A DNA stretch of 64,000 bases, taken from an uncultured virus (IMG/VR IMGVR_UViG_3300013923_000004). Lineage: Duplodnaviria > Heunggongvirae > Uroviricota > Caudoviricetes. This document shows positions 52,822 to 63,525 of this stretch, piece after piece. The position numbers and the translations under genes are program-made. A model generated the notes under the pieces. That model did not search any database, was not told the origin of the DNA, and worked only from the letters and a program-made list of their open reading frames with translations. Where the stretch lies: the IMG/VR virus record IMGVR_UViG_3300013923_000004, positions 1-64,000 of that record. The stretch is one strand, 5' to 3'. The stretch's first letter is position 1. Each line of letters opens with the position of its first letter.

Positions 52822-54558
52822 TCACCAGCCGGTCCTGGCCACTGGCTTGTTGCCGGCGTTGCTCCCAACCTTGACCTTTCCAACGCTCGGCGGCGCCGAG
52901 ATAATCGCCGACAGGCCGAGGTCCTCGACCAGCAGCGCTGCGACGTTGGCATAGTTCAGGGCATGCACCCAGTGGTCGGTATCGTTGGTCTTGATGAACC
53001 GCTCGACCATCTCCCCGTCCGGCCCTTTCGCGCGAATCTTCTTGGTGGTCTTGAGGTGCTCGAAGATCTCCTTGGTGATCTCCTCGCGCATCGGGTAGTG
53101 AATCTCTCCTGCGTTGTGCTTGTTCAGCAGCAGCGATAGCGTCTTCGTCCGATCCGCGTTTACCACCATCCCGTCGGCCTTCTCGTCTATCGGCAGAATG
53201 CCGCTGACCTTGCCGACGTAGACCACGGCGCGGATACCCTGCCGGGCGCCGACCAGGCTGTTGACCAGGGTGATGTCTGGCCCGGCGTCGATGCACAGCA
53301 TGGCCATGCGGAAGTAGTCGTAGCGCTCGATCACCTGGCCGGTCGCCGGATTCTCCCGGGTGTTGTGAATCTTCTCGGCCCAGACGACGTGCCAGTGGCG
53401 GCCAACCTTCGCCTTGACGACGAAGTGGCAGACTTTGCCGATGTCCATGCCGCCGATGGTCTGGCAGGTCACTGCCCACTGCTTGTATATCCACAGATCG
53501 ACGTCGCTGACCCGCTTGCGGTGCTCGTCGGTTACCGTGAAGTTGTTCTCGGCGTCGCTGTGAGGCAACCCGATGACGAAGTTGTAGAAGTCGCTGCGCA
53601 GCGGGTAGTCACCCATCTGCTTGATGATCGCCGGCGGCGTGTTGTACTTGGGCACGTCCCAGGGGAATACCTGGTAGCTGTGGTCCCATACGTCCGGCCG
53701 TTTGGCCACCCACTGGCGGCGATCGGGGTTGAGCAGTGCCTGCTGCAGGTCTTTGCCGCAGCATGGGCACTTGATGTACGACTCCTGGATACGGAAACGC
53801 GGATCGCTGACGTCCTCGCGGCCGAATTTGACGATGCTGTCGTCGAACCCCGGGACGATGAAGTCATGGTCGAAGTCAGGGAGAACCCACTGCTTGCAGC
53901 CCAGGCACTTGACCATGTAGTGCATCTGGTTGCCAGCGAGGAAGCCCTTGTTCACGCCGTAGTCGTCAACGGTCGGAGTCGAGAAACGCATCCGCATGCC
54001 ACGGTTGCCCATCTCGTCCACCATGCTGGCGTGGCGCAGGCGGGAGTTCAGCTTGCCGAGCACGACCTCGTTGGAGAAGTCCACTTCGTCGCTGATCACC
54101 ACTTCGGCCGGCACCGAGATCGCGCTGTTGGCACCGAACGAGCCGGTGATATACAGCGTGCAGGTGCCGATCTTCTTCTGGCTCGCGCTGTTGCTGGCCT
54201 TGTGGACCAACCCGCTGTAGAAGTCTGAGCTGTCGATCGCAGTGTCGAAGCGGTCCTTGGAGAACGGCATCGCCATATCGCGGGTCGGCAGCGTGAAGAT
54301 GATCCGGATGTGCTTCATCGTGGCACCCATGGCGATGGTCTTCTGAACCATCACCTCGGAGAGGCCCACCTGGGAGCACTTCTGGACATCGATTCGAGCG
54401 CTGGTGTCTCGAATGATCTCTTGCTGGAACTCGTGGTCCTTGAAAGAGTACGGCTTCCCGTTGACTCGGCCGTACTTGAGTACGACCTTGTCCAGCTCAC
54501 GCATCCCTTCCTCGCGGTTGAGCTGCATCCTGAGTCTACTAGCCGCAGAAGCCGTCAT
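52822..54558 (-). CDS. Terminase large subunit, lambda gpA-like
   Basis: QKCSQVGLSE, ISDEVD, FSTPT, two CxxC pairs, GMDIG, DHWVHALNYA. Confidence 0.92.
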   Translation of the reverse strand: MTASAASRLRMQLNREEGMRELDKVVLKYGRVNGKPYSFKDHEFQQEIIRDTSARIDVQKCSQVGLSEVMVQKTIAMGATMKHIRIIFTLPTRDMAMPFSKDRFDTAIDSSDFYSGLVHKASNSASQKKIGTCTLYITGSFGANSAISVPAEVVISDEVDFSNEVVLGKLNSRLRHASMVDEMGNRGMRMRFSTPTVDDYGVNKGFLAGNQMHYMVKCLGCKQWVLPDFDHDFIVPGFDDSIVKFGREDVSDPRFRIQESYIKCPCCGKDLQQALLNPDRRQWVAKRPDVWDHSYQVFPWDVPKYNTPPAIIKQMGDYPLRSDFYNFVIGLPHSDAENNFTVTDEHRKRVSDVDLWIYKQWAVTCQTIGGMDIGKVCHFVVKAKVGRHWHVVWAEKIHNTRENPATGQVIERYDYFRMAMLCIDAGPDITLVNSLVGARQGIRAVVYVGKVSGILPIDEKADGMVVNADRTKTLSLLLNKHNAGEIHYPMREEITKEIFEHLKTTKKIRAKGPDGEMVERFIKTNDTDHWVHALNYANVAALLVEDLGLSAIISAPPSVGKVKVGSNAGNKPVARTGW

Positions 54559-54801: not shown

Positions 54802-55001
54802 GTTGTGAAAGTCAGATCTGTGCCCGCAAGGCTGCCTTGTGATGTCTTTTTGACATTATGGTTATCGGCGGGAGCAGATGATGCTCTGGCGCCTTTATTT
54901 TGTCACACTGCGAAATGTCCACTTTTCGTACAGGCTGCTATATGAGCCTGCTGTAATCGCTGTTATTTCAGCAGAAATCGCGGATTAATCCTTTCGTCGG
55001 A

Positions 55002-55553
55002 TCAGCTTTCCCCCATCTCAATTCGCTCCAACTCCGCTAGTAACGCCTCTTGCTGCGGCCTGGTCAGGTGCGACTCCATGACGCGGCGCAGCGCCTCCTC
55101 CTGTTTCTGGATTCGGTCGATCGTGTAGATCTTTGGCAGGTCGCGGACCATCACCTGGGTCACCTTCAGCGACAGGTTCATGGCGTCCTTCAGCGGGATG
55201 TCGTAGTCCTCGGCGGTGGCCGTGACTGTGCCATCCGGGTTCACGATCCGGCGCAGTACGGTGTCGACCAGCTGGATCTGCTGCTTGAACGTCATCAGGA
55301 CACTGGCCTCGAGGCCGGCGATCTTGGCCACCATGTCGCGGCGCGCAGACGGGCTCATCGCATCGATGATCGATCGTTGGATGTCCGAGGACAGCATGTC
55401 CTGCCGCAGTGCTCCGATGACGTCCTGCACGGCCCGGTGGAGGCTGGGGTCGTCGCCCAGCTCGTCACTGCGGCCGTACGGCGTGAGGTCAGTGTGTGGG
55501 TTGACCTGGCGCCGGCTGCGGGATTCGTCGGTGGTGTCGGGGCGGTTCAGCAT
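55002..55553 (-). CDS. Putative terminase small subunit
   Basis: Helical 183-aa ORF upstream of terL; positional inference. Confidence 0.5.
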   Translation of the reverse strand: MLNRPDTTDESRSRRQVNPHTDLTPYGRSDELGDDPSLHRAVQDVIGALRQDMLSSDIQRSIIDAMSPSARRDMVAKIAGLEASVLMTFKQQIQLVDTVLRRIVNPDGTVTATAEDYDIPLKDAMNLSLKVTQVMVRDLPKIYTIDRIQKQEEALRRVMESHLTRPQQEALLAELERIEMGES

Positions 55554-55590
55554 CTACCACCGCCGATGATCAGGCAGAAATTCTCGGGGG

Positions 55591-55791
55591 TCATTGGTCC
55601 GCGTCCTTCGCAGCGTCTGTGCTGCCGTCGCTGTAGGTGGTGCAGCTGCCGTCGCTGTAGGTGGTGCAGCTGCCGTCGCTGTAGGTGGCGCAGCGGCAGG
55701 CCGACTCCAGCTCCTGGAGGGCCTTTCGCATCAGGAGCCATGCGGCTATGCCGGTCGCGCCGACACAGCTGAGCAGGATGACTACGCCCAC
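55591..55791 (-). CDS. Small membrane protein with Cys-containing repeats
   Basis: N-terminal TM followed by (C-T/A-TYSDGS) x3. Confidence 0.5.
   Translation of the reverse strand: MGVVILLSCVGATGIAAWLLMRKALQELESACRCATYSDGSCTTYSDGSCTTYSDGSTDAAKDADQ
55621..55692. repeat. 24-bp tandem repeat x3
   Basis: GCTGCCGTCGCTGTAGGTGGYGCA. Confidence 0.9.
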
Positions 55792-56073
55792 TTACGCCTC
55801 GACGCGGGTCTGGTCGGGGTTGGCGCTGTAGGTCAGGACGGTGCGGGCAGGTACTTGCACTTCGTGGCCGACTACGCCGCCTTTGACCAGGCGAGCTGCG
55901 TAACGGCGGGCGCGGAACTTGCCGAAGCCGCGCAGGGTGAGGTGGCCCTTGTCGAAGGTCAGCTTGCTGATGCCGGCCAGGGTGGCTTCGACGGCTTCCT
56001 TGGCAGCTGTTTTGGTCAGGCCAGTGACGCTGGCGACTTCGGCGACGAGGTCTTTCTTGGTGGCGTAGCTCAT
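55792..56073 (-). CDS. HU/IHF-family DNA-binding protein
   Basis: TKKDLVAEVA..GLTK, LRGFGKF, VPART. Confidence 0.9.
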   Translation of the reverse strand: MSYATKKDLVAEVASVTGLTKTAAKEAVEATLAGISKLTFDKGHLTLRGFGKFRARRYAARLVKGGVVGHEVQVPARTVLTYSANPDQTRVEA

Positions 56074-56349
56074 TGAGGACTCCGATCTGGTGTGATTTCA
56101 GGCTGTGAACCTGTAAACCTGTATTTGAAGATTCGGAGGGTAGTCAGCGAGGAGGCCGTTGTAAAGCCTGACTGTGCAACTTTTAGCGAACACCGGCGAA
56201 TTACTGTGATAACAACATAATCACATACGGAATTTGCAAAAATTTTGCTCGCGGAGGTAGGCGGGCTGCCTGGAGGTTCTATAACCAAAAAGATGGGGCG
56301 GGGATATGTTCTTATGCTTTTATATTCTTAGCTTTTCCATGCTTGGCGC

Positions 56350-56378
56350 TTGTTTCTATCGTTTTGCTTGCGTATAGT
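56350..56378 (+). promoter_or_regulatory. sigma70 early promoter
   Basis: TTGTTT-N17-TATAGT in AT-rich context. Confidence 0.65.
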
Positions 56379-56384
56379 TCGTCT

Positions 56385-57010
56385 CGTGGTCAGGCATTTA
56401 CTGATGGCCACCGGGGCTGGCTCCATCGCCCCGCGCGGCTCGCCTTGCGCTTGCCTCGACCGTTCTTTAAACCTGCTAGCTTGCCGCTCTGACCGAGCGG
56501 CGCATATTGAGTCACGACGGCGCAGCTTGCGCCGTTGCGGATAGTCTCGCCCATTGTCTGACAAGGGCTGGCGCTACCACTATCGGGCGAACTTTCGGCG
56601 ACACTGGCGCCGATTGCCGATAGTGGAACCAAAGCGCAAGAGACGACACGCCAGACGATATGCGCCCCGGCGGGCACGGCGCCCCTGCTTTGCAGCCTAC
56701 GGGCATGCAGGGCGGAGCCTTGCCTGACGACCGAAACGACGGCCTGCTCTGCATTGGGCAACCTGTATTTACAGGTTGCCGGATCATTAACAATTCAACG
56801 CTCCGACCCTCGATCTGCGCCCCCCTTGCGCCTTTTGTGTGTCGCTCGCCTGCTATCGCTGCCAGTGTCGGCAATAGCGCCAAAGTCGAGCGGCGCACGG
56901 CGCCCCGAACGGGCCCTATCGACCGGAGCAAGGAAACGAACCCAGCGGCTGCGATGGCAGCCGCTGGAATAGTACCTTCGACAATGCGCCGGATTGGCCG
57001 GCGCATTGCA
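56385..57010 (+). ncRNA. Candidate structured RNA or long 5' leader
   Basis: At least 8 stem-loops, a long-range 10-bp pairing, two boxA-like sites, no convincing ORF. Confidence 0.45.
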
Positions 57011-57039
57011 GAAAGTATTCAAGAATAGGGGAATTCACT

Positions 57040-57756
57040 ATGTCCAAAGCCAATAAAGCAACCATCACCGTCCGCGGCAAAGTCATCACCGCCCAGCAAG
57101 TCGCAGCCTTTGGCAAGTCGCTGGCCAATCAATCCGAGGCGATCACCGTATGGGCGAATTACTGCGCGATTCACGCGGTCGCTCATCACAACATCGAGCC
57201 GTTGAATGCCATGCTGCAAAACGGCGCCTTTCGCCTGACCACTGGCAAGCTGTCGAAGTTGGGCGGAGAAGTGGCCGCGTATATCAAAGCGCACGCGCCA
57301 CAAGTCCAGCTCGACGCTAAAACCGGCCGCTATATCGTCGCCAGGATGAAGGCTGATAATCCGCGTTTTCAAAAGTTTGCCAATCCGGCGAACCTAGACG
57401 GCGACGGCAAACCGGCCATTGTCGAGGCCGCCGACTTCGCCCTGACCTTCGACGAATGGCGCACACTGGAAAAGGCGGAAAAGGAACAAAAGCCGGTCAC
57501 CTTGAAAGCGGCGACCGTCACTGGCCAGATTGGCAAAGTATTGGAAGCGATCCAACAAAAGCGCCTGTCTGCCAGCGTCGAGGAGGCCGATACACTTCTG
57601 GCCGACGTGCTCAAGCTGCAGGCCGAACTGGTCAGCCTGACCGCCAAGCTGAAAGCCGACGCTGAGCCGGTAGACACCGCCAAAGTGTCCGAGCTGCTGA
57701 AAAGCGGTCAGGCTGGCAAGTCGAAGCGCGCCGGTGGCAAAGTCGAGGCCGTTTAA
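57040..57756 (+). CDS. Early hypothetical protein
   Basis: GGGGA RBS; 238 aa, Lys/Ala-rich. Confidence 0.8.
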   Translation: MSKANKATITVRGKVITAQQVAAFGKSLANQSEAITVWANYCAIHAVAHHNIEPLNAMLQNGAFRLTTGKLSKLGGEVAAYIKAHAPQVQLDAKTGRYIVARMKADNPRFQKFANPANLDGDGKPAIVEAADFALTFDEWRTLEKAEKEQKPVTLKAATVTGQIGKVLEAIQQKRLSASVEEADTLLADVLKLQAELVSLTAKLKADAEPVDTAKVSELLKSGQAGKSKRAGGKVEAV

Positions 57757-57816
57757 ACTCGCCCATTAACCTGTAAATAAGGGCGCCCCGAACGGGGCGC
57801 CGTTGGAGTTCACACG

Positions 57817-58032
57817 ATGAAACTAGCCGCAATCCGCGAAGTGGTCCGCGACGCCAAGGGGGGCGCCCGGACCATCGGCGCCCTTTTCGAAGTGTGCGCC
57901 GCCGATCTGGCGCTGGACCGGGCGCTGGCAGCCGGCGACCGGCTGGCGGCCCGCGCCGGGCTTGCCGGTCTGGCCAAGGCCGCCGGCTGGCGTCCGCTCG
58001 ACGCCCGGTCACTGTCCTGGCTGACCACCTAA
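57817..58032 (+). CDS. Hypothetical protein
   Basis: GGAG RBS; followed by a terminator. Confidence 0.6.
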   Translation: MKLAAIREVVRDAKGGARTIGALFEVCAADLALDRALAAGDRLAARAGLAGLAKAAGWRPLDARSLSWLTT

Positions 58033-58058
58033 GCCGCCTTCGGGCGGCTTTTTCTTTT
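58031..58058 (+). terminator. Rho-independent terminator
   Basis: AAGCCGCC-TTCG-GGCGGCTT followed by TTTCTTTT. Confidence 0.9.
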
Positions 58059-58101
58059 CGCGCGCGCGCGTGCACGCACATTCGCGCGCCGCGCCCTGGA
58101 G

Positions 58102-58188
58102 AAAGCCGCCGAAAGGCCGCTGAAAAAGTTCTGAAAATTCCGGCAAAAGTACCGGAAAATACCGGCAATAGAGCCGAAACCACCAAAA
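58102..58188. other. Phased A-tract array (intrinsically curved DNA)
   Basis: A-tracts start at 58102, 58112, 58123, 58134, 58145, 58156, 58167, 58177, 58185. Confidence 0.75.
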
Positions 58189-58261
58189 CGCCGGCAGTTT
58201 CACCCAATAGGTGACGGGAACCTCACCGCCAGAACCGGCTCACACCTGAAGGAATCACGCC

Positions 58262-58693
58262 ATGCAACCGAACCAGCTTGCCAGCCAAGACACCGACCTG
58301 CCGCTGCCTAACGTCTATTTCGTCAGCGTCACCCACGCCCTGACCGGCCAAACCCACCACATGTACATCCCGGCCGACTTCAACGGCGCGGCGTTCAAGA
58401 AGGTCCAGAACCTCTGCGCCGAGCGCCACAACTTCCGGCCGTACCGGTCGAACAGCGTGATCAAGATGCGCCGCCTGAAGCTGTCCGACTACCTGGAGAA
58501 TCCCGGTGCCCTACCGGCCGCCGCCGCAGTCGCTGCCGAACTCGGTGAGCGCGACATGGTGGCTGCGCTGGCCAAGCGTCCGCAGGAGATCGCCGCGCTC
58601 ATGGAGCAGCGTGGCGAGGCCATCGACTTCGACGCCTTGGCCAAAGCCCTGGGCGAGCAGCTGCGCGCCGTTGACCAACTGGGAGCCGCGTGA
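58262..58693 (+). CDS. Hypothetical protein
   Basis: AAGGA RBS; typical codon usage. Confidence 0.7.
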   Translation: MQPNQLASQDTDLPLPNVYFVSVTHALTGQTHHMYIPADFNGAAFKKVQNLCAERHNFRPYRSNSVIKMRRLKLSDYLENPGALPAAAAVAAELGERDMVAALAKRPQEIAALMEQRGEAIDFDALAKALGEQLRAVDQLGAA

Positions 58694-58947
58694 TGGGACG
58701 TCAGGTAGAGGCACAGCTCGAGGACCTGGCGCTGGCTGGGTGCCTCGTACAGATCGCCTTTTTCGTCGAGGACGACGAAGGCACCGCGGTGGTCATTCGC
58801 AGGCCCATCGTGGACTTCCCAGACGGCAGCCGGCTCACCAGCGACCTGTGCGACGCCCTTGTTTTCGACTGCCGCAGCCGGCATAGCGCGAACTCCTGGG
58901 CGCTTGAGCAGCTCATCGACCTCGGCGTCCCGTTCCGCTGGTCGTAG
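58690..58947 (+). CDS. Hypothetical protein
   Basis: Coupled ORF. Confidence 0.6.
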   Translation: MMGRQVEAQLEDLALAGCLVQIAFFVEDDEGTAVVIRRPIVDFPDGSRLTSDLCDALVFDCRSRHSANSWALEQLIDLGVPFRWS

Positions 58948-58958
58948 GGGTGACGGTG

Positions 58959-59024
58959 CGTAAAGGTGGCCAAGGTAGGCCGCACGTAAAGGTGGCCAAG
59001 GTAAACCGCACGTAAAGGTGGCCA
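58959..59024. repeat. 26-bp tandem repeat, 2.5 copies, intergenic
   Basis: CGTAAAGGTGGCCAAGGTARRCCGCA. Confidence 0.9.
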
Positions 59025-62549: not shown

Positions 62550-62667
62550 AAATCACAAGTATTTACAGCAATACAGGAACACTGCCATGATAGCGACGCC
62601 TCAGCGCACTGAGGCCCTGGTTTGGCGACCGGGAAAAGGAGCGGACAGTCTGGATTAGCCCGTTTAT

Positions 62668-62758
62668 GGCGGGCTGAGAGTGGGAGACCTGCGAGGGTCT
62701 GCCGGTTACGCTCGGCTGTCCGTTCTCCACCGGTTCGCCAACCCACTCTCAGCCTGCC
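62668..62758 (+). ncRNA. c4-like antisense RNA (P1/P7 immI type)
   Basis: 17-bp closing stem, AGACC/GGTCT and GCCG/CGGC hairpins, single-stranded segments complementary to upstream TTGGCG loop and CGGACAG; precedes a KilA-N gene. Confidence 0.75.
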
Positions 62759-62796
62759 ACCCTATTCGGTGGCTCCCGTAATTACAGGAGTTACGC

Positions 62797-63525
62797 ATGT
62801 CTGACATTATCAAAATCGACTTCGAGAGCCGCCAAGCAGAGCTGCACCTCGACAACAGTGGGCGCTACAACCTCAACGACCTGCACAAGGTGGCGGGAGG
62901 TGGGTCGAAGCATCAGCCTTCCAACTTCCTGCGCCTCGACACTACGAAGGCACTCATCGAAGCGCTGGAATTGGAGCGTTCCTCAGATCTGAGGATCGGT
63001 CAAGAATTGACCAAAAATTTAAGCTCCTCAGATCTGAGGAGCTTAAATTTTTCGCCCGTTGAAGTGGTCCTCGGCAAAGGCAAAGACCAAGGCACCTTCG
63101 TAGCCAAAGAACTGGTCTACGCCTACGCCATGTGGGTGAGCCCGAGGTTCATGTTGGCGGTCACCCGGATCATTGATGAAATCGCCCGGACCGGCACCTA
63201 CGCCCAGGACCGCTGGGTCGACTTCGCCGAATACTGCAACCTGGTCCGCAAGAGGATCAGCCCACGCAGCAAGACGCTGACCACGGTGCCACACAGTGTC
63301 AGGCACGCCCTGATCATTGCCCGGGCCGATCCCGCGATGGGCGATGCCATGGTGTTTGGCGATGGAGGCGCGTCGTGGGTCCGAGAGGATCGGCTGAGCA
63401 CGGCGTTCTGTATGTCCGCAGCCAAGGACGGCCAGGTGAACCGACACCACTTCGAGGCGGTGCGAGAAGCTGAGGAGTACAGCGTGCTGACGAAAGCGGA
63501 AGTTCTGGTAAAAGCCAACCCTTAA
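62797..63525 (+). CDS. KilA-N domain protein (antirepressor-like)
   Basis: GRYNLNDLHK, PSNFLRL, QGTFVAKELVYAYAMWVSPRF. Confidence 0.9.
   Translation: MSDIIKIDFESRQAELHLDNSGRYNLNDLHKVAGGGSKHQPSNFLRLDTTKALIEALELERSSDLRIGQELTKNLSSSDLRSLNFSPVEVVLGKGKDQGTFVAKELVYAYAMWVSPRFMLAVTRIIDEIARTGTYAQDRWVDFAEYCNLVRKRISPRSKTLTTVPHSVRHALIIARADPAMGDAMVFGDGGASWVREDRLSTAFCMSAAKDGQVNRHHFEAVREAEEYSVLTKAEVLVKANP

What the first reader, a model, noticed from the sequence alone, without database searches (positions are those of the whole stretch)
56385..57010. About 650-nt densely structured untranslated RNA behind the early promoter
Seen: after TTGTTT-N17-TATAGT there is no credible ORF until 57040, but many stems. 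These are GTGGTCA/TGGCCAC (56387), CGGGGC/GCCCCG (56412), GCCGCTC/GAGCGGC (56482), GACGGCGCA/TGCGCCGTT (56516), CCACTATCGG/CCGATAGTGG (about 56577-56626), a long-range CGACACTGGC (56599) with GCCAGTGTCG (56861), the motif hairpin at 56757, and two perfect 11-bp stems (56942-56967, 56982-57008). Some stems include G-U pairs on the + strand. Inference: a large, possibly undescribed ncRNA or regulatory leader (antitermination platform, protein sponge or anti-defence RNA).
Basis: partly seen in the sequence, partly recalled or inferred. Interest (0 to 1): 0.75.

Follow-up and report, generated by a model that had tools for sequence, protein, structure and literature searches.

The report
Large structured phage leader RNA with boxA
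A phage of the Pseudomonas phage Lana family carries, behind a host-type promoter, a conserved and intricately folded untranslated RNA of about 650 bases that bears the same short signal (boxA) that ribosomal RNA operons use to keep RNA polymerase from stopping early, and no described RNA family matches it.

Summary
Window 56385-57039 has no conserved ORF. It folds far better than shuffles (z -7.4; coding controls -1.0 and -1.9). In 9 near relatives its predicted helices keep pairing through compensatory changes: 31 pairs changed on both sides against 14.7 in shuffles.

Folding and wobble counts do not tell the strand. Three other features point to the + strand: a sigma-70 promoter conserved in place, an invariant C(UACG)G tetraloop, and boxA-like antitermination elements. 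All 26 family sequences scanned have a boxA-like element 541-660 nt before the start codon. Fifteen match the published consensus GYTCTTTAANA perfectly; the window has 10 of 11. Thirteen of the 26 have a second copy.

The unit (promoter, leader, one unknown gene plus small ORFs, strong terminator) recurs in phages Lana and UAntarctica. PMBT3 shares the long unannotated gap.

My best reading is a Nus-factor-loading structured leader or stable RNA of the early operon. What the folded domains do is unknown.

No Rfam family matches, and my literature searches found no description. Transcription is only weakly supported, by two small RNA-library contigs.

The parts
56310..56345 (+). AT-rich block just upstream of the -35 hexamer; possible UP element (inferred)
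   Evidence: Nearly invariant in 8 aligned sequences (TCTTATGCTTTTATATTCTTAGCTTTTCC). The function is inferred from its position.
56351..56379 (+). Sigma-70-type promoter TTGTTT-N17-TATAGT; inferred transcription start near 56386
   Evidence: Sequence read. The hexamers are invariant or nearly so in 10 sequences. Relatives have better hexamers at the same place: TTGACT with CATAGT, TAATAT or TACTAT in L155-L157, and TTGCAC with TAGTAT in UAntarctica. The consensus scan did not flag it because only 3 of 6 bases match in the -35 hexamer.
56386..56433 (+). Two 5'-terminal hairpins (56386-56411 and 56412-56433)
   Evidence: Helices 2 and 3: 98.9% and 96.2% of cells paired. GC-to-AU double changes occur at columns 62/81, 87/104 and 89/102.
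56462..56472 (+). boxA-like element 1, GTTCTTTAAAC (10 of 11 to GYTCTTTAANA)
   Evidence: It lies in an unpaired stretch of the consensus fold. The orthologous site is GCTCTTTAACA or GTTCTTTAACA (11 of 11) in 15 of 26 family sequences. It is the only block invariant across 16 divergent sequences. The E. coli rrnB leader reads TGCTCTTTAACAA.
56483..56501 (+). Hairpin GCCGCTC-TGACC-GAGCGGC, 10 nt after boxA1; a boxB-like position (inferred)
   Evidence: Stem and loop are invariant in 8 of 10 sequences, with one loop base changed in the other 2. In L156/L157 a different hairpin (CATGCC...GGCATG) stands in its place.
56499..56666 (+). Domain closed by the long-range helix 56499-508 / 56657-666. 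It holds hairpins 56516-36, 56549-68 and 56577-626.
   Evidence: Helix 11: 100% paired, 4 of 10 pairs changed on both sides (GCAT/ATGC against TTTG/CAAA). L006 and L129, otherwise near-identical, differ in both arms.
56600..56608 (+). 5' partner (GACACTGGC) of the long-range 9-nt pairing; lies in the loop of the hairpin CGGC/GCCG
   Evidence: perfect complement to 56861-69 in 12 of 13 sequences, in three co-varying versions.
56685..56715 (+). Long hairpin with a bulged A and a C(UACG)G tetraloop (UACG at 56698-56701)
   Evidence: Helix 2: 99.2% paired in 12 sequences, 3 pairs changed on both sides. The loop is UACG in 11 of 12 sequences and UAUG in L155.
56757..56782 (+). Hairpin carrying the genome-wide palindromic motif AACCTGTATTTACAGGTT (56760-77)
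   Evidence: The outer stem covaries (helix 23, 3 of 5 pairs changed on both sides). The motif recurs at intergenic sites.
56782..56793 (+). boxA-like element 2, GATCATTAACAA (2 mismatches to GCTCTTTAACAA)
   Evidence: It is unpaired in the consensus fold. A second copy, mostly ACTCTTTAACA, stands 228-318 nt before the start codon in 13 of 26 family sequences.
56800..56930 (+). 3' domain closed by GCTCCG/CGGAGC, with an inner hairpin whose loop holds GCCAGTGTC (56861-69), the 3' partner of the long-range pairing
   Evidence: Helices 25-30 are mostly invariant; helix 28 has one pair changed on both sides. L005 changes the local stem GCCG/CGGC to TTTG/CAAA. Long-range partner.
56942..56967 (+). 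Hairpin T1, 11-12 bp, loop GAUG, with no U-tract after it on the + strand
   Evidence: Helix 31: 99.1% paired, 4 of 11 pairs changed on both sides. GC to GU to AU intermediates appear in L008 and L007.
56971..57019 (+). Extended hairpin T2 (core 56982-57008), 20-45 nt before the ribosome-binding site
   Evidence: Helix 32 has 3 pairs changed on both sides. By eye, I read a hairpin at the same place, with a different sequence, in the 18 of 27 printed upstream regions that I checked.
57040..57756 (+). First gene after the leader, 238 aa, unknown function; homologue of Lana gp127
   Evidence: tblastn 29-31% identity to Lana, PMBT3 and UAntarctica. 87 protein clusters. No Pfam or PHROG family. No fold match.
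58031..58058 (+). Strong intrinsic terminator closing the first transcription unit
   Evidence: 8-bp stem, then TTTCTTTTCG. Terminators stand at the equivalent place in L008, Lana and UAntarctica.

Best explanation
Window 56386-57039 is the + strand, about 655-nt untranslated and highly folded 5' part of the first early transcript. It is driven by a host sigma-70 promoter at 56351-79.

The nascent RNA displays two rrn-type boxA elements, at 56462-72 and 56782-93. Each follows hairpins and precedes a large folded domain.

Inferred mechanism: NusB/NusE (S10), together with NusA, NusG and possibly SuhB, assemble on boxA and convert RNA polymerase into a termination-resistant form, as in rRNA operons and at lambda nut sites. 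Polymerase can then finish this long, ribosome-free RNA without being stopped by Rho. It can also read into the 238-aa gene, and perhaps through the terminator at 58031-58.

The folded part comprises the long-range helix 56499-508/56657-666, the 9-nt pairing 56600-08/56861-69, the UACG hairpin, and a terminal hairpin at each end. It is built like a stable RNA and probably has a function of its own, which is not known.

Shown here: conservation, covariation, boxA matches, promoter conservation and the layout of the unit. Inferred: transcription, Nus binding, antitermination and RNA stability.
For: Structure:
- z -7.38, against -1.04 and -1.88 for coding controls.
- On 10 sequences, 96.9% of 2120 cells pair, against 31-46% when partners are slid.
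- 31 pairs are changed on both sides, against 14.7 in shuffles; 0 of 500 shuffles reach it.
- The long-range 9-nt pairing is perfect in 12 of 13 sequences, in three covarying versions.
- The UACG hairpin domain is 95.2% paired in 12 sequences.

Non-coding: no conserved ORF.

Strand and mechanism:
- The published gamma-proteobacterial boxA consensus is GYTCTTTAANA (PMC5725501, passages read).
- The E. coli rrnB leader, fetched here, reads TGCTCTTTAACAA.
- 26 of 26 family sequences have a + strand match 541-660 nt before the start codon: 15 perfect, 11 with one mismatch. 13 have a second copy at -228 to -318. The - strand has only 3 one-mismatch hits, all at -42.
- boxA is the only invariant block across 16 divergent members.
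- The promoter is conserved in place, with consensus-like hexamers in relatives.
- The C(UACG)G loop is invariant on the + strand in 11 of 12 sequences.

Layout of the unit:
- A gap of 840-910 nt stands before the same gene in Lana, PMBT3 and UAntarctica.
- A strong terminator follows the first 1-3 ORFs in the window, L008, Lana and UAntarctica.
- Leader nucleotide identity is at least that of the adjacent gene in 6 of 9 near relatives.

RNA evidence: two small libraries labelled transcriptomic, from two different studies, each hold one contig on the leader. These cover 56259-56500 and 56427-56657, at depth 3-4. Neither library covers the flanks within 55000-59000.
Against: - The window's own boxA1 misses the last consensus base, and boxA2 has 2 mismatches.
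- Within the window alone, boxA-like matches are not enriched: 4 against 1.97 expected, and 14 of 100 shuffles do as well.
- Fold energy does not favour the + strand. The - strand is more stable in 14 of 14 family sequences, and z is equal for the window.
- G.T against A.C cells in a strand-neutral helix set are 30 against 33.
- The RNA-library contig of run X15 starts 127 nt upstream of the inferred start. Contigs carry no strand, and depth is low.
- Covariance models built on the near relatives did not find the Lana group significantly. R1 scored E 0.14-5.6 at the expected sites, and a false hit scored better. R2 scored E 0.014-0.36 on a hairpin-plus-boxA module only.
- A 12-nt boxA would suffice for Nus loading, so this mechanism does not explain the roughly 500 nt of conserved fold.
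Confidence: 0.55

Rival explanations
1. The RNA is mainly a trans-acting, stable, abundant ncRNA: a scaffold, a sponge for a host or defence factor, or a self-assembling particle like GOLLD or ROOL. On this view it is released from the mRNA by processing near hairpin T2, and boxA only protects its synthesis from Rho.
For: - About 500 nt of conserved multi-domain fold with a long-range pairing, far more than antitermination needs.
- Hairpins at both ends (56386-411 and 56942-57019), which suit a stable RNA.
- Only the leader, not the flanking genes, was assembled in two small RNA libraries.
- The leader is conserved as well as the adjacent gene or better in 6 of 9 near relatives.
- Large phage-associated RNAs of similar size that form RNA-only multimers are on record (PMC12286853, abstract seen).
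Against: - No terminator or mapped 3' end separates the leader from the gene.
- T1 and T2 lack a U-tract on the + strand.
- The leader is always fused to the same gene at a constant distance. That suits a cis role.
- No target or partner has been identified.
Confidence: 0.25
2. A cis-regulatory sensor or autoregulatory leader. The fold binds the product of the downstream 238-aa gene (an N-like antiterminator or translational repressor) or a host signal, and so sets expression of the early operon.
For: - The leader and the gp127-like gene always occur together: 24 loci, and three cultured phages.
- The layout promoter - boxA plus hairpin - first gene - terminator parallels lambda pL-nutL-N-tL1 (layout recalled from general knowledge; the terminators are).
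- Hairpin T2 lies directly before the ribosome-binding site in the family members checked.
Against: - The protein has no recognisable RNA-binding or any other family. It has no fold match: best Foldseek E 0.68, best VIA Z 4.8.
- It has no arginine-rich N-terminus of the lambda N type (sequence; the motif is recalled).
Confidence: 0.12
3. The selected structure is not a + strand RNA. It is instead a - strand transcript, or single-stranded or cruciform DNA serving replication or packaging next to the HU-like and terminase genes.
For: - The - strand folds as well or better.
- Wobble counts are symmetric.
- The region lies beside the HU-like, putative small terminase and TerL genes.
- The X15 contig crosses the + strand promoter.
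Against: - boxA elements, the promoter and the UACG loop all read on the + strand and are conserved in position.
- The left flank varies among relatives (other genes and tRNAs intervene), while the right-hand gene is constant.
- Long-range helices spanning 160-260 nt, with covariation, are not a known feature of pac, cos or ori sites (general knowledge).
- I did not find a conserved - strand promoter to the right of the region (by eye; scan).
Confidence: 0.06

Closest known systems
rRNA operon leader and spacer antitermination signals (boxB-boxA-boxC; the Nus factor/SuhB complex)
   Same: - The boxA sequence: family GCTCTTTAACAATT against E. coli rrnB TGCTCTTTAACAATT.
- A hairpin lies just before boxA.
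- There are two boxA copies, each ahead of a large folded untranslated domain closed by long-range helices.
- A strong sigma-70 promoter with an AT-rich upstream block.
   Different: - It is carried by a phage and precedes protein genes, not rRNA.
- The folded domains have no similarity to rRNA or to any Rfam family.
- The window's own boxA copies deviate from the consensus.
- No clear boxC. A GU-rich TGTGTGTCGC at 56836-45 is only a loose resemblance.
Lambda immediate-early unit pL-nutL-N-tL1 (boxA plus boxB nut site); layout recalled from general knowledge
   Same: Promoter, then boxA followed about 10 nt later by a strictly conserved 7-bp hairpin with a 5-nt loop (56483-501), then the first gene, then a strong terminator (58031-58).
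   Different: - The leader is about 650 nt rather than tens of nt.
- boxA is of the rrn type rather than the shorter lambda type.
- The first gene product (238 aa) shows no likeness to N.
- The phage family is unrelated to lambdoid phages: its TerL is closest to those of Lana, PMBT3 and Vibrio SHOU24.
GOLLD, ROOL and OLE large ornate RNAs
   Same: Size of about 600 nt, many helices, a long-range loop pairing, and carriage by a phage. tRNA genes stand nearby in Lana and UAntarctica.
   Different: No covariance-model match to any of them. This RNA is fused to a downstream gene and carries boxA. Multimer formation is untested.
boxA sites outside rRNA (suhB 5' UTR; long CRISPR arrays)
   Same: boxA is placed at the start of a long or untranslated transcript and recruits Nus factors (PMC5725501, passages; PMC7862264, search listing only).
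   Different: Those sites are short and are not tied to a large conserved fold.
HK022 put RNA (factor-independent antitermination RNA); recalled
   Same: A cis-acting structured phage RNA just downstream of an early promoter that modifies the polymerase.
   Different: put is about 70 nt with two stem-loops and needs no boxA or Nus factors. No model was available to test likeness.

Membership tests
boxA (NusB/NusE-binding antitermination element) | Match to the gamma-proteobacterial consensus GYTCTTTAANA at a conserved place on the transcript (family level) | tested here: met
   26 of 26 family sequences have a + strand match at -541 to -660. Fifteen are perfect and 11 have one mismatch. Consensus from PMC5725501. 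rrnB reference fetched.
boxA (NusB/NusE-binding antitermination element) | The window's own copies match the consensus | tested here: inconclusive
   boxA1 GTTCTTTAAAC matches 10 of 11, with the last base C instead of A. boxA2 GATCATTAACAA has 2 mismatches to GCTCTTTAACAA. The window-wide count is not above chance.
boxA (NusB/NusE-binding antitermination element) | Single-stranded in the nascent RNA, downstream of a promoter | tested here: met
   Both copies are unpaired in the consensus fold. They lie 83 and 403 nt after the -10 hexamer. This rests on prediction only.
boxA (NusB/NusE-binding antitermination element) | Binds NusB/NusE and confers resistance to termination | not testable with these tools
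   Needs binding assays, ChIP or reporter tests.
Lambda-type nut site (boxA plus boxB bound by an N protein) | A boxB hairpin next to boxA and an N-like protein encoded downstream | tested here: inconclusive
   A conserved hairpin at 56483-501 lies 10 nt after boxA1. The downstream protein has no family or fold match.
Any Rfam 15 family (including GOLLD, ROOL and OLE) | Covariance-model score at or above the gathering threshold | tested here: not met
   The whole window yields only C4 at 62662-764. The region at E up to 10 yields three chance-level hits on the - strand. Relatives L001, L134, L155 and L156 yield tRNAs only.
Intrinsic terminator (for hairpins T1 and T2) | A GC-rich stem followed by a U-tract on the transcribed strand | tested here: not met
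   No T-run follows 56967 or 57019 on the + strand. The scan flags T1 only on the - strand.
Protein-coding gene or small ORFs | An ORF conserved in frame and extent among relatives | tested here: not met
   ORFs of 50 aa or more differ in frame, start and end among the 10 sequences, and the alignment has indels that are not multiples of three.

The most novel reading that the evidence does not exclude
The RNA is a phage-made imitation of an rRNA operon. It would be a large ornate RNA with two boxA sites, made in quantity from a strong promoter, that draws the host Nus/SuhB antitermination machinery onto itself. This would both secure phage early transcription and starve host rRNA synthesis. 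It may also assemble into a higher-order particle through its complementary 9-nt segments (56600-08 and 56861-69) acting between molecules.
Probability: 0.1. Interest if true: 0.85.

Novelty: new variant of a known kind. Interest (0 to 1): 0.72.

Why it matters
Very few large (over 500 nt) conserved structured RNAs are known in bacteria and phages, and their functions are mostly open questions. This one occurs in cultured, tractable phages (Lana, PMBT3 and UAntarctica on Pseudomonas), so it can be tested directly.

It also links a large fold to a defined host machinery: boxA and the Nus factors. That use is known outside rRNA operons mainly from lambdoid phages. If confirmed, it would extend rrn-type antitermination to an unrelated family of siphoviruses. 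It would also provide a new RNA for structural study, with a covariation-supported long-range contact already in hand.

Tried and rejected
- Small-ORF explanation: rejected, as no ORF is conserved.
- Strand from thermodynamics and from G.U against A.C counts: uninformative. My first shuffle script timed out.
- Rfam: nothing.
- blastn of the region against the phage and plasmid collections: no match. The tool notes that records of the window's own genome, or of one very near it, may be left out.
- The 15-mer pattern scan of IMG/VR gave mostly chance hits; only known contigs were true. Of the 22-mer scans, 2 of 3 metagenome loci were true homologues. Neither of the 2 genome-collection loci matched beyond the pattern itself.
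- Covariance models R1 and R2 did not link the near group to the Lana group with significance. That link rests on synteny, the promoter, boxA and a weak nhmmer hit at E 8e-4 on a tiny database.
- RNAalifold on the MAFFT alignment of the Lana group was unreliable, because the alignment was too divergent.
- blastn of the Lana boxA stretch against E. coli genomes found nothing because the query was too short. I fetched the rrnB leader by accession instead.
- Fold of the 238-aa protein (pLDDT 78.4): no match by Foldseek or VIA-align. The protein atlas gave only unnamed viral clusters.
Earlier findings of this scan: none.
- Sequencing runs: all holders were Logan contigs with at most 0.30 of the sampled words, so they give no starts, ends or strand. 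The two wastewater 'RNA?' runs are probably DNA, by the tool's own label.
- Literature searches found no paper describing this RNA. Term searches in the PMBT3 and Lana papers (intergenic, non-coding, promoter, terminal repeat, termini) turned up no description of the region. Their supplements were not read.

Full report
**Setting.** The window is the first 64 kb of a single 78,315-bp virus contig. The large terminase subunit (52822-54558, - strand) is 55-59% identical to those of Pseudomonas phages Lana, PMBT3 and UAntarctica. The finding lies in a 966-bp gap. On its left are - strand genes: an HU-like protein at 55792-56073 (Pfam Bac_DNA_binding, E 5e-14), then the terminase genes. On its right is a + strand gene at 57040-57756, whose product is 29-31% identical to Lana gp127 and its homologues.

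**The observation.** As RNA, 56385-57039 has a minimum free energy of -313.2 kcal/mol, z -7.38 against 20 dinucleotide shuffles. Two coding stretches of equal length from the same genome give z -1.04 and -1.88. The - strand folds equally well, with z -7.34.

**Relatives.** Seven IMG/VR contigs and two metagenome contigs carry the region at 77-93% identity. A protein-profile scan added three intermediate loci, L155-L157, at 57-63% protein identity, plus a dozen Lana-like loci. The cultured phages Lana, PMBT3 and UAntarctica each have an unannotated gap of 840-910 nt before the homologous gene. The leader is as conserved as the adjacent gene, or more so, in 6 of 9 near relatives. It is single-copy in the genome.

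**Not coding.** ORFs of 50 aa or more differ in frame and extent among the 10 aligned sequences. The alignment also holds many indels that are not multiples of three, and whole hairpins come and go.

**Structure is selected.**
- I counted the RNAalifold + strand consensus (215 pairs) on the 10-sequence MAFFT alignment. 96.9% of 2120 cells pair, against 31-46% when partners are slid by 1-3 columns.
- 31 pairs show changes on both sides, against 14.7 +/- 2.3 in column shuffles; 0 of 500 shuffles reach the observed value.
- The best helices are the long-range 56499-508/56657-666 (4 of 10 pairs doubly changed), T1 at 56942-67 (4 of 11), T2 at 56971-57019, and the outer stem of the motif hairpin (3 of 5).
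- L006 and L129 are otherwise almost identical, yet they carry the two alternative versions of both arms of the long-range helix.
- The sequences are related, so shuffle counts overstate independence. The slid controls and the L006/L129 case speak to that concern.

GACACTGGC (56600-08) and GCCAGTGTC (56861-69) are perfectly complementary in 12 of 13 sequences, in three versions:
- GACACTGGC/GCCAGTGTC in 9 sequences;
- GGCAATGGC/GCCATTGCC in L155;
- GGCACTGGC/GCCAGTGCC in L156 and L157.

L005 has two mismatches. Each partner sits largely in the loop of a local hairpin, and one local stem is itself compensated in L005 (GCCG/CGGC to TTTG/CAAA). A loop-loop contact is therefore my reading. It is inferred and was not tested against a plain helix.

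**Which strand.**
- Energy and wobble pairs do not decide. The - strand is more stable in 14 of 14 family sequences. A strand-neutral helix set holds 30 G.T cells against 33 A.C cells.
- The promoter does point to the + strand. It keeps its place across the family and has near-consensus hexamers in relatives: TTGACT with CATAGT, TAATAT or TACTAT in L155-L157, and TTGCAC with TAGTAT in UAntarctica.
- A C(UACG)G tetraloop at 56698-701 caps a covarying hairpin. It is kept in 11 of 12 sequences and reads UAUG in L155.
- boxA points the same way, as described next.

**boxA.** The Lana group carries CGCTCTTTAACAATT. I fetched the E. coli rrnB leader, which reads ...AGCGGCAC TGCTCTTTAACAA TTTATCAG.... 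Baniulyte et al. derive GYTCTTTAANA as the gamma-proteobacterial consensus (PMC5725501, passages read).
- In the 900 nt before the start codon of 26 family sequences, every one has a + strand match 541-660 nt upstream. Fifteen are perfect and 11 have one mismatch.
- Thirteen have a second copy at -228 to -318, mostly ACTCTTTAACA.
- The - strand has only three one-mismatch hits, all at -42.
- boxA is the only block invariant across 16 divergent members.
- The window's copies are GTTCTTTAAAC (56462-72, 10 of 11) and GATCATTAACAA (56782-93). Taken alone, the window shows no enrichment, so the case rests on positional conservation.
- Both copies are unpaired in the consensus fold. Each follows hairpins and precedes a large domain.
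- Ten nt after boxA1 stands the most conserved hairpin of the RNA, GCCGCTC-TGACC-GAGCGGC.

**The transcription unit.** After the 238-aa gene and a possible 71-aa ORF comes a canonical terminator at 58031-58. Equivalent terminators follow the first one to three ORFs in L008, Lana and UAntarctica. The order is promoter, boxA plus hairpin, first gene, terminator. This parallels the lambda immediate-early unit, which I recall from general knowledge.

The first gene product has no Pfam or PHROG family. It has 87 homologous clusters, all unnamed or labelled hypothetical. One of these comes from a 623-kb Stutzerimonas stutzeri contig. Its AlphaFold model (pLDDT 78.4) finds no fold match: best Foldseek E 0.68 and best VIA Z 4.8.

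**Expression.** All runs that hold part of the stretch are kept as contigs, so they carry no strand or ends. Two small libraries labelled transcriptomic, from two different studies, each hold one contig on the leader. X15 covers 56259-56500 and X16 covers 56427-56657 and runs on for 84 nt. Depth is 3-4, and neither library covers anything else within 55000-59000. This is a weak hint of an abundant RNA. The X15 contig begins 127 nt upstream of the inferred start, which I cannot explain.

**Known families.** Rfam 15 gives nothing for the region or for its relatives. My covariance models did not bridge the two subgroups with significance. Literature searches found no description of this RNA, and term searches in the PMBT3 and Lana papers turned up no description of the region. 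I did not read supplements.

**Verdict.** This is a real, conserved, multi-domain structured RNA element, most likely transcribed on the + strand as the leader of the early operon and equipped with rrn-type boxA signals. Nus-factor loading is the best-supported mechanism for how it is made and how polymerase reads on. The function of the fold itself remains open.

Noticed in passing
window 937, 8318, 12399, 26284, 48951, 52373, 56116, 56760; genome 68018, 74021: The palindromic motif AACCTGTATTTACAGGTT (core CTGTA-TT-TACAG) gives 8 matches in the window against 0.09 expected, and more in the rest of the genome. Most copies lie 0-45 nt upstream of a gene start, on either strand, and sometimes overlap the likely Shine-Dalgarno (8318...TACAGGAAccagaATG). 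One copy sits inside the leader, 3 nt before boxA2. Its 5' half is kept even where the hairpin loop has insertions. It could be an operator for a phage regulator, acting either as DNA or as an RNA hairpin.
   Followed up: partly
window 62662-62764 (+) and 62797-63525 (+): A C4 antisense RNA (Rfam RF01695, 64 bits, E 4e-10) is directly followed by a KilA-N / anti-repressor-like gene (Pfam KilA-N E 3e-19; PHROG 129/2127). This is a P1-type immunity arrangement, which suggests a temperate or formerly temperate lifestyle.
   Followed up: no
window 55621-55697: Three tandem copies of a 24-nt unit (GCTGCCGTCGCTGTAGGTGGTGCA...) lie between the putative small terminase gene and the HU-like gene. In the - strand ORF 55591-55791 they encode a repeated ...TYSDGSC... 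peptide.
   Followed up: no
window 56231-56247 and 56293-56305: There are conserved upstream blocks between the divergent units: the palindrome GCAAAAATTTTGC, and AAAAAGATGGGGCGGGG. The second has a counterpart (AAAATAGGGGGCGGGG) in Lana, PMBT3 and UAntarctica. These may be regulator sites or the - strand promoter region.
   Followed up: no
window 56899-56913 and 57782-57796: An exact 15-nt repeat, GGCGCCCCGAACGGG, occurs once inside the leader and once in a hairpin (57782-57801) just after the 238-aa gene.
   Followed up: no
protein P0005: A 90%-identical homologue of the 238-aa protein is recorded from a 623-kb contig named Stutzerimonas stutzeri. This hints at the host genus and at a prophage or resident form of this phage group.
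   Followed up: no
L001 1607-1677; L134 1029-1346: Lana has one tRNA gene and UAntarctica has three, on the opposite strand between the leader and the HU-like/terminase genes. The window itself has no tRNA.
   Followed up: no
window 56549-56568: The hairpin GCCCATTGT-CTG-ACAAGGGC is missing in L004 and L007, which instead carry a 34-nt insertion about 70 nt further on. L128 has a 45-nt extra hairpin after 56733. Its 3' arm (GACAAGGGC, or GACAATGGC in some relatives) resembles the 5' partner of the long-range pairing, so it could offer an alternative pairing.
   Followed up: no
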